This document shows positions 17,729 to 60,627 of a stretch of DNA of 64,000 nucleotides, piece after piece. Source of the stretch: Edaphocola sp. (GTDB lineage: Bacteria > Bacteroidota > Bacteroidia > Chitinophagales > Chitinophagaceae); NCBI GenBank assembly GCA_047605615.1, contig JASGFI010000001.1, forward strand, positions 486 to 64,485, written 5' to 3'. Below the pieces are notes generated by a model. The model was not told where the DNA came from. It saw only the letters and a list, made by a program, of their open reading frames with translations, and did no database searches. Position 1 is the stretch's first letter, and each line of letters opens with the position of its first letter. The translations under genes and the position numbers were made by a program.

Positions 17729-17985
17729 AACATGGATGCCGCAAAGATACGAAGGCCAATCCGGAATAGGGAACGGGCAAATGGCCGGGGGCAATTTGCA
17801 GCAGGCAAAAGGGGCCATCAACGGTGGCCATTCGGCAATGGGCAAAAAGCCGCACCGCACGTCGCGAACCTCTTTTTTGTGCCTGCCGTGCCTTGCGCCG
17901 GGTGAAAACGGCATTGCATCATCAAGTAACTTTTTGTACATTTACCCCACGAAAATATAGGTATAACCCAATTAAATTTGAAACA

Positions 17986-18477
17986 ATGGCCATTACGAAC
18001 CTCAACAACCTGCACCTTACGGACGAACAGCTGGAGGTGGCGCAAAATGCCCTCGAGGAGTTGGAAAACGCCCTCGCCGCCATCAACGTAAACCTCACGG
18101 CAGACGACCGCCGCAGGTATGGCAGCATCAACGAGCAAAACAAATTGTTCGTGAACAAAGTGAACGACTACTTCGCCAACCAGCCCGCCCTCAGCTCGCC
18201 CGAGGTGGACTGGGCGGAATTTGCCGCCGACTATGCCAGCCGCAAAAGCTACGAAGCCATCATAGCAAGGCTCGACAGCCTGAGCCAAACGCTGGCCAAT
18301 GCCAAAATACTGCACGATTACGACAATTACCAGTCGGCCCTTACCGACTACGCCTACACCGCCTACAAGGCAGGCACATCCGCACCGGGCTACGAAACCA
18401 AGTATGACGAGTTGAAGCAGTTCTTTGCCAGATCCTCTTCCACGGGCGGCACGGACACGGGCGGCACAACCGGGTAA
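17986..18477 (+). CDS. Conserved hypothetical all-helical protein (163 aa)
   Basis: MAITNLNNL...VNLTADDRRRYGSINEQNKLFV...LHDYDNYQSAL...YDELKQFF; resembles a Bacteroidota hypothetical family recalled from memory; strong host-like codon bias. Confidence 0.85.
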   Translation: MAITNLNNLHLTDEQLEVAQNALEELENALAAINVNLTADDRRRYGSINEQNKLFVNKVNDYFANQPALSSPEVDWAEFAADYASRKSYEAIIARLDSLSQTLANAKILHDYDNYQSALTDYAYTAYKAGTSAPGYETKYDELKQFFARSSSTGGTDTGGTTG

Positions 18478-18490
18478 GCCCCCCCCGTTG

Positions 18491-18742
18491 GGGCTGCCGG
18501 CCCATCCGCACACGTTGCGAAATGGTACGGATATGTAAGGCACCCCTCCCGATGCGTTGCCGGCCCCCCCGTTGGGGTTGCGCAACGTATATTTTGGGGT
18601 TCGGGACGCCAAATTTTGGGTTCCGAACCCCAACGGGGGTACAGGACACCCCAACGGAACAGTTTGCAACCGCAACGAAGCCTTGCAGGACGTATCGGGA
18701 TGGGTTCGGAACGTGTGGGGAACGTTGCGGAACGCGGGAACA
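18491..18742. repeat. Degenerate 21-nt tandem array (12 units)
   Basis: Shared blocks recur only at multiples of 21 nt: offsets 21, 63, 84, 84, 105 and 210. Confidence 0.8.
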
Positions 18743-18894
18743 CGGGACTTGGACGATATTTGGGCACAAACATTTTTTCTTCGGGCAGCATTAAACCTAT
18801 CGCCCCCCGCCGGGGCAAAAAAACCCACGAAGCCCTCCGGCGTGCAGCATACTTGCGCTATCTTTGCCGCTTAACCCAAAAAAACAGGAATAAT

Positions 18895-59317: not shown

Positions 59318-60508
59318 TTAACCTTTCGGGCTTGCCCCTGCTATTTCCTCCAAATAATCTTCCAGCTTTTGGGCTATCATGTCCCATGAAAAGTATTTCC
59401 TGATTACCTCTTGGCCGGCAGTTCCGGTTTTGTGCCTTAGTTCCTTGCGTTGCAGCAAGTCTATGCACGCTTGCGCAAATTCTTCGGTGTTCGTCTTTTT
59501 AAGTACCCCTTCGCCCGAAACGACGTTAAGGCCATTGAAGCCAATTGCGCCGCTTACTACGGGCACGCCCATGGCCATGGCTTCCAATACCTTGTTTTGC
59601 GTACCGGCGCCAAAGCGCAATGGAGCCACTACTACCGTGGCGGCACTGTACACATCGGCCAAATCAGGTACGAAACCCGTAACCTGCACGGCATCGCTTT
59701 GAAGTGCCAATACCGGTTTCACCGGTCGCTGCCCGGCTATGGTGAACCTTGCCGTCGGCACCGATTTTTGTATGATGGGGAAAACATCTTTTACGAAATA
59801 CCGCACCGCATCTACATTGGGCGCGTAGTCCATGTTGCCGGTAAACAAAAGCCTGTCGGTAATGGAATAATCATGCGGCGGCAGGTTAAAAACTTCGGTG
59901 TCCACGCCATTGGGCAGCAAGCCTAATCGTTGTATTCCCTTATGCTCCAGCCATGCCACGTCTTCCTGCGAGCAGGCCAACACTTTGTCAAATTGGTTGA
60001 GGATAACCTCGTAATTATCTACTCTTTCGTATTCCCATTTTGCGAATGTTACTTTCAGCCCCCTCAGTTGTTCTGCCCGTCTTCTCCAATACAGCGAGTA
60101 AGCGTCGGGCAGGTCCAAGATGCGCGGGATGTTTCTATACTGGTGCCAATATTGCGCCAACCGCAAATGTTGCACATGCACCGCATCATAGTTGTGTGTG
60201 GAGGTCACCTCGGCCACTTTTTGCCTCATTTTTTCCGAAGCAAAATAACGCACCTGAAAAGGCTCCTTCCGCAGGAAAGCCTTGGCACTGTTGAAGTACG
60301 ACTGCGCTTTGCCAAGCGGCACAAGGTGTATTTGCTCAAATACCTTTTTTAATTCGGGAAGGTATTGTTCGTCGTCCTTGTCTTGCAGGAAAGTAAGCAG
60401 GTGCAACTCGTGCCTGCCTGCCAACCTGCGGGCAAGGTTGTATATTTTCAACTTGTCGCCACGATAAGGCGGGTAGGGCAGGCGATTGGCCGCAAACAGT
60501 ATTTTCAT
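59318..60508 (-). CDS. Glycosyltransferase family 4
   Basis: LPYPPYRGDKL, PNGVD, FTGNMDYAPNVDA, GTQNKVLEAMAMG. Confidence 0.95.
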   Translation of the reverse strand: MKILFAANRLPYPPYRGDKLKIYNLARRLAGRHELHLLTFLQDKDDEQYLPELKKVFEQIHLVPLGKAQSYFNSAKAFLRKEPFQVRYFASEKMRQKVAEVTSTHNYDAVHVQHLRLAQYWHQYRNIPRILDLPDAYSLYWRRRAEQLRGLKVTFAKWEYERVDNYEVILNQFDKVLACSQEDVAWLEHKGIQRLGLLPNGVDTEVFNLPPHDYSITDRLLFTGNMDYAPNVDAVRYFVKDVFPIIQKSVPTARFTIAGQRPVKPVLALQSDAVQVTGFVPDLADVYSAATVVVAPLRFGAGTQNKVLEAMAMGVPVVSGAIGFNGLNVVSGEGVLKKTNTEEFAQACIDLLQRKELRHKTGTAGQEVIRKYFSWDMIAQKLEDYLEEIAGASPKG

Positions 60509-60538
60509 CTATGGCCGCAAATTTAGACAAAGTCAAAA

Positions 60539-60615
60539 TTAGACACAAGACATTAGATTTTAGACACAAGATTTTAGACACAAGACACAAGATTTTAGAC
60601 ATTTGATTTTAGACA
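60539..60615. repeat. Heptamer microsatellite (11 units)
   Basis: ttagaca caagaca ttagatt ttagaca caagatt ttagaca caagaca caagatt ttagaca tttgatt ttagaca. Confidence 0.9.
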
Positions 60616-60627
60616 TTAAACCCCCAA

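What the first reader, a model, noticed from the sequence alone, without database searches (positions are those of the whole stretch)
18491..18742. Twelve-unit degenerate 21-nt array in unbroken register, built from shuffled blocks
Seen in sequence: from 18491 the DNA parses into twelve 21-mers with no indel: gggctgccggcccatccgcac / acgttgcgaaatggtacggat / atgtaaggcacccctcccgat / gcgttgccggcccccccgttg / gggttgcgcaacgtatatttt / ggggttcgggacgccaaattt / tgggttccgaaccccaacggg / ggtacaggacaccccaacgga / acagtttgcaaccgcaacgaa / gccttgcaggacgtatcggga / tgggttcggaacgtgtgggga / acgttgcggaacgcgggaaca. The shared words I traced all recur at multiples of 21: ccccaacgg 18628/18649 (21), tgccggccc units 1/4 (63), cccccccgttgggg 18480/18564 (84), tgggttc.gaac 18617/18701 (84), cgtat 18586/18691 (105), acgttgcg 18512/18722 (210). 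Many units have a quasi-palindromic GTT-N3/4-AAC core followed by a more variable half. The plus-strand heptad frame has a stop in unit 3. Inference: length is conserved while sequence is shuffled, which does not fit an ordinary decaying microsatellite. It could be a two-helical-turn protein-binding array, a processed repeat RNA (conserved core plus variable segment, a non-CRISPR guide-like array), or a recombinationally diversified cassette.
Basis: partly seen in the sequence, partly recalled or inferred. Interest (0 to 1): 0.85.

Follow-up and report, generated by a model that had tools for sequence, protein, structure and literature searches.

The report
Gene-linked phased 21-bp palindromic repeat array
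The 21-base periodic array is real, non-coding and kept next to one small uncharacterised gene across the phylum Bacteroidota, with a period of exactly two turns of the DNA helix. It is most likely an undescribed protein-binding DNA scaffold rather than an RNA, a CRISPR-like array or a decaying microsatellite.

Summary
Lag-21 self-identity in 18491-18742 is 0.485 against 0.259 in shuffles (z 7.7), the strongest periodicity in the 64-kb window. The array spans about 18478-18765.

It is not a local oddity. In 68 of 78 homologous loci (Chryseobacterium, Flavobacterium, Niabella, Marinifilum, Pedobacter and others) a 21/22-nt periodic array of 7-29 units starts a median 38 nt after the stop codon of the 163-aa gene. 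Relatives at about 30% identity also carry arrays, with different arm sequences and sometimes upstream.

- **Unit:** quasi-palindromic, GGTT-N3/4-AACC plus a palindromic spacer, with dyad axes every 10.5 nt.
- **Period:** 21.09 ± 0.26.
- **Not coding:** no codon-phase bias, and real 22-nt units occur.
- **Not CRISPR-like:** orthologous arrays are collinear.
- **No RNA structure signal:** no covariation, and G·U is depleted.
- **Terminators:** 64 of 79 loci have an intrinsic terminator between gene and array.

Best reading (confidence about 0.4) is a helically phased protein-binding DNA array, probably bound by the linked helical protein, which forms a higher-order nucleoprotein complex. The protein has no detectable DNA-binding domain and is acidic, so function remains unproven. 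No Pfam, Rfam, PDB or literature match was found.

The parts
17973..17980 (+). Bacteroidota-type -7 promoter box TAAATTTG, 5 nt before the ATG. This implies a leaderless or near-leaderless mRNA. It is also the upstream limit of sequence conservation of the module.
   Evidence: Pattern TANNTTTG. The alignment with the Arachidicoccus locus shows no similarity upstream of this box.
17986..18477 (+). Gene for a 163-aa acidic (pI 4.5), all-helical protein of unknown function. It belongs to a stand-alone family, and the array is linked to that family.
   Evidence: ORF. There are 1102 homologous clusters and 769 clusters at 50% identity. No Pfam, PHROG, NCBIfam or PADLOC family matched. The AlphaFold model is helical with pLDDT 76. 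No fold match was found. pI.
18478..18765 (.). Array of about 13 degenerate 21-nt quasi-palindromic units, with a GTT-N3/4-AAC core and a palindromic spacer.
   Evidence: Autocorrelation. Repeats and inverted repeats. Dyad axes every 10.5 nt. Unit chain. Collinear with the Arachidicoccus array at 58% identity, with no codon-phase bias.
18570..18595 (+). Weak terminator-like hairpin plus T-rich tail inside the array (CGTTGGGGTTGCGCAACG TATATTTT). This window lacks the strong terminator that most homologous loci have between gene and array.

Best explanation
The array is a DNA-level, helically phased protein-binding site array.

Proposed mechanism:
- Each 21-bp unit carries two dyad-symmetric sub-sites 10.5 bp apart: the GGTT-N3/4-AACC core and a palindromic spacer. 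All sub-sites therefore lie on one face of the double helix.
- Dimers of a sequence-specific protein bind these sites side by side and cooperatively. The most economical candidate is the helical protein encoded immediately next to the array.
- Binding builds a long nucleoprotein filament or superhelix over 250-600 bp, in the manner of plasmid centromeres or iteron arrays.

Shown: the periodicity, the dyad symmetry, the non-coding nature, the phylum-wide linkage to the gene, purifying selection on phase, and the absence of RNA-structure signatures.

Inferred: that a protein binds, that it is the neighbour's product, and what the complex is for. Candidate roles are chromosome or locus organisation, autoregulation, titration or defence.
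For: Linkage to the gene:
- 68 of 78 homologous loci have lag-21/22 identity of at least 0.48 within 1 kb downstream of the gene. The figure is 0 of 78 upstream, and 2 of 78 for control lags.
- Distant relatives (28-33% identity) also carry arrays, with different arm sequences: ACGTGTT/AACACGT and TAGGT/ACCTA. The position is downstream or upstream.
- No other neighbouring gene is conserved.

Helical phasing:
- The spectral period is 21.09 ± 0.26 (n = 63), with a second harmonic at 10.50. This matches two turns and one turn of B-DNA.
- Dyad axes recur every 10.5 nt, with no single dominant axis.

Selection on phase:
- Eighteen Chryseobacterium arrays (about 21 units, 441 nt) align at 64% mean column identity.
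- The three long internal gaps are 17, 21 and 62 columns, each within one column of a whole number of units. Only three isolated 1-nt gaps lie inside the array.
- Invariant T and A columns recur every 21 nt.

DNA-type rather than RNA-type symmetry:
- RNAalifold gives a covariation term of about 0.
- Covarying column pairs do not exceed the shuffled null (1151 against about 1040).
- Per-unit complementarity at the spacer dyad is in excess for Watson-Crick pairs (z 5.3-6.7), while G·U is depleted (z -4.7).
- The strand bias in foldability is not consistent across lineages.

Terminators: 64 of 79 loci have a terminator-like hairpin plus T-run within 130 nt after the stop codon, and most of the listed ones look canonical. 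The array is therefore largely shielded from the gene's transcription.

Conservation: the window array is collinear with that of another genus, while the flanks show no similarity.

Protein: the most conserved segment, (D/E)R-x-(R/K)-Y-G-S-I-N-E-Q-N-K-x-x-V-N-K, is helix-Gly turn-helix. It contains invariant basic and polar residues, and it varies in the lineages whose arrays differ.
Against: - The linked protein is acidic (pI 4.5-5.5 in most members).
- No HTH, RHH or other DNA-binding family is detected by Pfam, NCBIfam, PDB sequence search or Foldseek. Its role as the binder is inference only.
- No NTPase or other partner gene is conserved nearby. The module is chromosomal and absent from plasmids and viral contigs, which is unlike classical centromere or iteron systems.
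- The per-unit excess of complementarity at the spacer is not what a single sequence-specific dimer predicts. It could instead indicate selection for hairpin or cruciform potential.
- RNA-derived assemblies from wastewater contain contigs that run from the gene's 3' end through the terminator into the array. Some transcription of the array therefore occurs, or DNA contaminates those libraries.
- In Chryseobacterium the + strand is G+T rich and folds 20-60 kcal/mol better than the - strand.
Confidence: 0.4

Rival explanations
1. The array works as RNA. It would be a repeat RNA, either read through from the gene or made from its own promoter. Its units would bind or sequester a protein, as a sponge, scaffold or type III antitoxin-like RNA, possibly the product of the linked gene.
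For: - Metatranscriptome contigs span the gene end, terminator and array (X13 record 18 and X12 record 12).
- The + strand folds better than the - strand in 48 of 65 arrays. The window + strand has z -3.2 against -1.4 for the - strand.
- The gene-terminator-repeat layout and the lineage-specific repeat sequences recall ToxIN-type systems (own knowledge).
- One distant relative has 16 near-identical 22-nt repeats upstream of the gene.
Against: - There is no conserved structure or covariation.
- G·U is depleted rather than tolerated.
- Strand bias reverses in Flavobacterium-type arrays.
- No Bacteroidota promoter box lies at either end of the array in the window.
- Strong terminators precede the array.
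- Units are only about 50% alike.
- There is no Rfam hit and no PADLOC hit.
- The apparent 'array >> gene' RNA depth is unsafe. The same array type follows a different gene copy in other strains, and some 'RNA?' runs behave like DNA.
Confidence: 0.2
2. The palindromes act as DNA hairpins or cruciforms, in single-stranded or supercoiled DNA. A structure-specific protein would recognise them, for example for mobility, replication priming or recombination of the roughly 0.8-kb module. This would be analogous to REP/BIME clusters flanking RAYT genes, or to attC sites.
For: - Complementarity is strictly Watson-Crick and unit-specific at the spacer dyad.
- Arm sequences change between lineages while symmetry is kept.
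- The module sits in unrelated genomic contexts.
- Several genomes carry two or more copies, and gene/array combinations differ between strains.
Against: - Arms are short (4-7 bp) and imperfect.
- There is no per-unit compensation at the core dyad.
- No dispersed copies of the unit occur elsewhere in the 64-kb window.
- The protein has no HUH/Y1 or recombinase signature and is predicted all-helical.
- No target-site duplications or terminal repeats were seen.
Confidence: 0.12
3. The DNA array is bound by a host protein encoded elsewhere, such as a nucleoid-associated protein or global regulator. The neighbouring gene would only be a passenger or a regulated target.
For: All the DNA-level evidence above applies. 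In addition, the linked protein is acidic and has no recognisable DNA-binding domain.
Against: - Strict co-inheritance of gene and array holds across orders and down to about 30% protein identity, with array sequence changing along with the protein.
- Divergent paralogous modules coexist in one genome.
- Both are hard to explain if the binder were a conserved host factor.
Confidence: 0.12
4. The array is a functionless tandem repeat kept by slippage, or a heptad-repeat coding region, or a CRISPR-like spacer array.
For: - Several frames are open across the window array.
- 21 nt equals 7 codons.
- Whole-unit indels are what unequal crossing-over produces.
Against: - Mismatches against Arachidicoccus are even over codon phases (38/32/33), against 22/17/71 in the gene.
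- There is no 3-nt periodicity of conservation.
- Real 22-nt units exist.
- Phase and specific columns are conserved across the phylum.
- Orthologous arrays are collinear, so there are no spacers.
Confidence: 0.03

Closest known systems
Plasmid centromere arrays with their binding proteins. Examples are parC/ParR of R1 and pSK41, parH/ParG of TP228 and heptad arrays/omega of pSM19035. Single-protein systems include StbA/stbS and pSK1 Par.
   Same: - Tandem short sub-sites lie next to the gene of the binding protein, in direct and inverted orientation, phased with the helical repeat.
- The pSK41 parC repeat is 20 bp and is bound by a dimer of dimers.
- Repeats are degenerate.
- Repeat sequence co-varies with the protein between systems.
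   Different: - This module is chromosomal, not on plasmids or phages.
- There is no NTPase partner.
- There are 12-29 units rather than 4-12.
- The protein is acidic and has no detectable RHH or HTH domain.
- Binding is untested.
KfrA-type alpha-helical DNA-binding proteins with a repetitive operator (RA3; PMC7783346)
   Same: A small N-terminal DNA-binding part is followed by a long alpha-helical tail that oligomerises. The operator is made of short repeats in both orientations next to its own gene.
   Different: - KfrA is plasmid-borne and 355 aa long.
- Its operator has five 9-bp repeats overlapping its own promoter.
- No sequence or fold similarity was found here.
Origin iterons of lambdoid phages and iteron plasmids. 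Examples are the four palindromic iterons of lambda ori inside gene O, and 17-22-bp iterons of P1, F and R6K (own knowledge).
   Same: - Imperfect palindromic units are spaced about two helical turns apart and are adjacent to or inside the gene of the protein that binds them.
- The only viral-contig match to GGTT-N4-AACC x3 at 21-nt spacing is a repeat inside a phage ORF (L097).
- I read that repeat as iteron-like by analogy with lambda O. This is inference and was not tested.
   Different: - No replication genes are nearby.
- The copy number of units is much larger.
- Chromosomal positions are unrelated to a mobile element.
- The array lies outside the coding region.
Tandem ARG boxes / ArgR and the 21-bp Arc operator (own knowledge)
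   Same: Palindromic boxes are spaced 21 bp centre to centre, or sub-sites about 11 bp apart, so that oligomeric repressors contact one face of the DNA.
   Different: Those operators have two or three boxes, overlap promoters and regulate a downstream gene. Here there are 12-29 boxes behind a terminator at the 3' side of the gene.
Type III toxin-antitoxin loci (ToxIN, CptIN, TenpIN)
   Same: A repeat array and a gene of about 170 aa are separated by an intrinsic terminator. Repeat sequences are specific to each lineage.
   Different: - The order is reversed in most loci.
- Units are 21 nt and degenerate rather than near-identical 34-45 nt units.
- There is no RNA structure signal.
- The protein is helical and acidic, not a ToxN-like endoribonuclease.
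- There is no PADLOC hit.
REP/BIME clusters and RAYT genes
   Same: Clusters of short palindromes in alternating orientation lie just after gene ends, sometimes flanking a gene of about 160 aa.
   Different: REPs are dispersed in hundreds of copies, whereas this unit is confined to the one locus in the window. The protein has no Y1/HUH domain.

Membership tests
CRISPR or CRISPR-like guide array | Constant repeats alternate with unique spacers that differ between related genomes | tested here: not met
   Units abut with no spacers. Arrays of 18 Chryseobacterium species, and of the window against Arachidicoccus, are collinear unit for unit.
CRISPR or CRISPR-like guide array | Associated cas or other effector genes | tested here: not met
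   No conserved neighbour other than the 163-aa gene. No PADLOC match.
Heptad-repeat protein-coding region | Open frame kept across species, with substitutions concentrated at third codon positions | tested here: not met
   Mismatches are 38/32/33 by phase against 22/17/71 in the gene. Conservation by phase is 0.76/0.78/0.75. Real 22-nt units occur.
Structured non-coding RNA (Rfam family or new) | Match to a curated covariance model | tested here: not met
   No gathering-score hit in the window or over any array in 20 loci. The only nearby hits are DUF805b in 2 loci, outside the arrays.
Structured non-coding RNA (Rfam family or new) | Conserved base pairs supported by compensatory changes, with G·U tolerated | tested here: not met
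   RNAalifold covariation term is 0.19. No excess of covarying pairs. No dominant long-range axis. G·U is depleted.
Centromere-like or iteron arrays with a cognate binding protein | Tandem sub-sites phased with the DNA helical repeat, adjacent to the gene of the binder | tested here: met
   Period 21.09 and harmonic 10.50. Dyad axes every 10.5 nt. Linkage in 68 of 78 loci and in distant relatives.
Centromere-like or iteron arrays with a cognate binding protein | The neighbouring protein has a DNA-binding domain (RHH, HTH or wHTH) and binds the repeats | tested here: inconclusive
   No domain is detected by Pfam, NCBIfam, PDB or Foldseek. A conserved helix-Gly-helix segment exists. Binding is not testable here.
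Centromere-like or iteron arrays with a cognate binding protein | Partner NTPase (ParA, ParM or TubZ) or replication genes, and location on a plasmid or phage | tested here: not met
   No conserved partner. No homologue in the plasmid collection or IMG/VR.
Type III toxin-antitoxin | Near-identical RNA repeats upstream of a ToxN/CptN/TenpN endoribonuclease gene | tested here: not met
   Units are about 50% alike and lie downstream in 68 of 78 loci. The protein is helical with no PADLOC or Pfam hit.
REP/BIME with RAYT | Palindromic unit dispersed through the genome, and a Y1 (HUH) transposase | tested here: not met
   The core motif is not enriched elsewhere in the window (8 matches against 7 expected). 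The periodic signal is unique in the window. No Y1_Tnp hit.

The most novel reading that the evidence does not exclude
A previously undescribed, phylum-wide two-part chromosomal module. It consists of a small helical protein of a new fold family and its own array of 12-29 helically phased palindromic sites. Together they would assemble an NTPase-less nucleoprotein filament, a 'mini-centromere' or chromatin-like organiser. Lineage-specific recognition would allow several orthogonal copies per genome. Possible uses are locus positioning, silencing, insulation or defence.
Probability: 0.3. Interest if true: 0.85.

Novelty: new variant of a known kind. Interest (0 to 1): 0.72.

Why it matters
If the array is a protein-binding scaffold, it defines a new DNA-binding protein family. 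The family has at least 769 clusters at 50% identity and currently has no Pfam entry, no solved structure and no literature.

It would also define a new class of chromosomal cis-element in Bacteroidota, a phylum whose chromosome organisation and gene-regulation factors are poorly known.

The period equals two turns of B-DNA. The arrays tolerate whole-unit but not small indels. These two properties make the module a natural system for studying cooperative, face-specific DNA binding and protein-DNA co-evolution.

Practically, these arrays are likely to be miscalled as ORFs, as happened in the Arachidicoccus record. They could also be miscalled as CRISPR-like repeats.

Tried and rejected
- **Rfam:** the window, the 700-nt region at E ≤ 10 and 20 loci were scanned. 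Nothing relevant was found.
- **Protein family searches:** Pfam, PHROGs, NCBIfam, PADLOC and PDB sequence search, on both the full protein and the conserved segment, gave only sub-threshold noise.
- **Structure:** Foldseek of the AlphaFold model against PDB and BFVD gave no match with E < 1.
- **Other collections:** no homologues in IMG/VR or in the plasmid collection.
- **Long-hairpin model:** no dominant axis, best pairing 0.59.
- **Local-hairpin covariation:** no better than the null.
- **G·U versus A·C strand test on loosely defined palindromes:** uninformative.
- **RNA abundance:** I first read wastewater RNA runs as showing far more array RNA than gene RNA and then withdrew that reading. 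The same array type follows a different gene copy in other strains, and two 'RNA?' runs give long flat contigs like DNA.
- **Sequencing runs:** no run holds the window sequence.
- **Pattern search:** a strict three-unit DNA pattern matched none of my own arrays, so the single metagenome scan was not spent on it.
- **Literature:** seven full-text searches found no description of the array or the protein.
- **HTH or RHH in residues 32-65:** considered from the sequence pattern only. Neither fits the canonical spacing well, so neither is claimed.

Full report
**1. The observation**

- Identity at lag 21 is 0.485 against 0.259 in 2000 dinucleotide-preserving shuffles (z 7.7). Lag 42 gives z 5.2. 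No shuffle reached the observed maximum.
- In a scan of all lags 3-60 over the whole window, this is the strongest periodic signal. The lag-21 track is exceptional only over 18445-18792.
The sixth, tgccggccc, is visible in the printed units.
- Tandem Repeats Finder sees only two copies, because the units are too diverged.
- Smaller autocorrelation peaks occur near multiples of about 5.25 and 10.5. The inverted-repeat analysis shows dyad axes every 10.5 nt rather than one hairpin axis.

**2. Context in the window**

The array fills most of the 417-nt gap between two genes.
- The upstream gene is a 163-aa ORF (17986-18477, +). A Bacteroidota -7 box, TAAATTTG, ends 5 nt before its ATG.
- The downstream gene is a GHL10-family gene with its own -7 box at 18859.
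- No promoter box lies at either edge of the array.
- Neighbours are housekeeping genes: a DEAD-box helicase, thymidine kinase and RuvB.

**3. The array belongs to the gene family**

The 163-aa protein has more than 1100 homologous clusters, all unnamed and all in Bacteroidota.
- I fetched 80 genome loci from Chryseobacterium, Cloacibacterium, Kaistella, Flavobacterium, Niabella, Pedobacter, Capnocytophaga, Marinifilum, Labilibaculum, Petrimonas and others.
- In nearly all of them the strongest periodicity of the whole locus is lag 21 or 42, directly after the gene.
- Formally, 68 of 78 loci reach lag-21/22 identity of at least 0.48 within 1 kb downstream. The figure is 0 of 78 upstream, and 2 of 78 at control lags.
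- Arrays have 7-29 units (median 15) and start a median 38 nt after the stop codon.
- No other neighbouring gene is conserved.
- The window's array is collinear with that of Arachidicoccus (58% identity over 247 columns). Similarity stops at the -7 box upstream and at about 18745-18765 downstream.
- The conserved module is therefore promoter box + gene + array, about 0.8 kb, sitting in unrelated contexts.

**4. Deep conservation of architecture, not sequence**

A profile search finds 769 clusters at 50% identity. All are about 150-175 aa single-domain proteins. Relatives at 28-33% identity still have arrays:

| Locus | Array | Position |
|---|---|---|
| L087/88 | 22-nt array built on CGTGTT..AACACG | after a terminator |
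| L089 | 16 near-identical 22-nt units, TAGGT/ACCTA arms | 220 nt upstream of the gene |
| L092/93 | five units | after a terminator |
| L094 | array | upstream, at the contig start |
| L095 | about eight units | downstream |
| L096 | 63-nt super-period | downstream |

Genomes can hold two modules. These are either recent duplicates with 147-nt (7-unit) higher-order repeats, or paralogues at 50-53% identity.

**5. Anatomy of the unit**

- Across 65 arrays the common core is GGTT-N3/4-AACC. Its T and A, 6 nt apart, are nearly invariant.
- The remaining roughly 10 nt form a second palindrome whose sequence depends on lineage. It is CCAAATTTGG-like in Flavobacterium and related genera, and GTCTCCGGAGAC-like in Chryseobacterium.
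- Fourier analysis gives a period of 21.09 ± 0.26 (n = 63) and a second harmonic at 10.50.
- In 18 Chryseobacterium species the array is about 21 units (441 nt) and aligns at 64% mean column identity.
- The three long internal gaps are 17, 21 and 62 columns, each within one column of a whole number of units. Only three isolated 1-nt gaps fall inside the array.
- Invariant columns recur every 21 nt, and the conservation profile is roughly symmetric about the core dyad.

**6. Readings that are excluded**

*Coding.* Mismatches between the window and Arachidicoccus are even over codon phases (38/32/33), against 22/17/71 in the gene. Conservation shows no 3-nt period. Real 22-nt units occur.

*CRISPR-like or diversified cassettes.* Orthologous arrays are collinear.

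*Known RNA families.* None matched.

**7. DNA or RNA?**

Against a structured RNA:
- RNAalifold finds essentially no consensus structure over the array, with a covariation term of 0.19.
- No long-range axis pairs better than 0.59.
- Covarying pairs do not exceed a shuffled null.
- Within arrays, the left and right halves of the spacer of the same unit are more complementary than shuffled halves (z 5.3-6.7). The gain is Watson-Crick only and G·U is depleted (z -4.7).
- The core dyad shows conserved sequence without per-unit compensation.
- The + strand folds better in Chryseobacterium-type arrays, but the bias reverses in Flavobacterium-type arrays.
- 64 of 79 loci have a terminator-like hairpin plus T-run between the stop codon and the array. 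Most of those listed look canonical.

For RNA:
- Wastewater RNA assemblies contain contigs running from the gene end through the terminator into the array.
- I do not trust my first impression that array RNA greatly exceeds gene RNA. The same array type follows a different gene copy in other strains, and some of these runs behave like DNA.

**8. The protein**

- It is acidic (pI 4.5-5.5 in most members).
- It is predicted all-helical, with one 57-residue helix (pLDDT 76).
- It has no match in Pfam, PHROGs, NCBIfam, PADLOC, PDB or BFVD.
- Its most conserved segment, DR-x-(R/K)-YGSINEQNK-x-x-VNK, is a helix-Gly turn-helix with invariant R, K, N and Q. It differs in the distant members whose arrays differ.
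- It does not match HTH or RHH models, and I could not model the dimer.
- That this protein binds the array is therefore inference from linkage and co-variation.

**9. Verdict**

The best-supported account is a helically phased, dyad-symmetric protein-binding DNA array, co-inherited with the gene of its probable binder. It would work like plasmid centromere or iteron arrays and KfrA-type repetitive operators.

It fails the membership tests for those families on three points: no NTPase, no recognised DNA-binding fold, and a chromosomal location.

Rivals are an RNA repeat array, a hairpin/cruciform element, and binding by a host factor.

I found no description of the array or the protein family in seven literature searches.

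Noticed in passing
window 60506-60617: An unrelated intergenic tandem repeat built on TTAGACA(CAAGA), with periods of 7, 14, 21 and 35 nt. It is the second strongest periodic region of the window.
   Followed up: partly
window 17973-17985: The -7 promoter box TAAATTTG ends 5 nt before the ATG of the 163-aa gene, so the mRNA is probably leaderless. Similarity with the Arachidicoccus locus begins exactly here.
   Followed up: partly
window 18441-18467: An exact 12-nt direct repeat, CACGGGCGGCAC x2, 15 nt apart. It encodes the low-complexity C-terminal tail (TGGTDTGGT) just before the array.
   Followed up: no
L089 2437-2775: Sixteen near-identical 22-nt units (GACCTATTGGGAGTAGGTTCCA) lie 220 nt upstream of a distant homologue, inside a 1.5-kb gene-free stretch. 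This is the only near-perfect array seen, and it is upstream rather than downstream.
   Followed up: partly
L039 3560-4010 and L041 3560-4100: The two Niabella hibiscisoli modules (proteins 98% identical) have arrays of 26 and 29 units. The arrays are made of 147-nt blocks of seven units repeated 2-3 times, so they grow by block duplication.
   Followed up: partly
L048 3787-3822; L074 3969-4004: Rfam DUF805b RNA motif hits (43 and 51 bits) lie within 25 nt after the array in L048 and about 70 nt after it in L074, in two different genera. None of the other loci fetched has the motif, so it probably belongs to the downstream genes.
   Followed up: partly
L097 3153-3280 (IMG/VR contig): Six 21-nt repeats (GATGGTTTAAAAACCACTAAT), each holding a GGTT-N4-AACC palindrome, lie inside a 242-aa phage ORF as GDGLKTT heptads. 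The layout recalls the lambda ori iterons inside gene O. That comparison is my inference and was not tested.
   Followed up: partly
L003 3486-3832, as seen in runs X9, X10 and X1: In other strains an array 95% identical to that of L003 follows a different upstream sequence, while the L003-like gene is followed by a different array (232 nt replaced by 211). Genes and arrays therefore appear to be recombined between modules.
   Followed up: partly
A2 columns about 540-575 (L047, L025, L028, L051, L030, L077, L031): Several Chryseobacterium loci share a GCTGGCGC-AGCGTCTCGCT-GTG hairpin element just after the array. It looks like a dispersed REP-like element of that genus.
   Followed up: no
L081, L082, L087, L091, L092, L095: Neighbours of several modules are of the defence or variable-island kind: HepT/MNT, Mrr, HipA, Ku, two CHAT proteases and Fic. 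The window's neighbours are housekeeping genes.
   Followed up: no
L081 8476-8820: The public gene calls for Arachidicoccus ginsenosidimutans place a 114-aa ORF over its array. This is very likely a miscall, given the lack of coding signal.
   Followed up: partly
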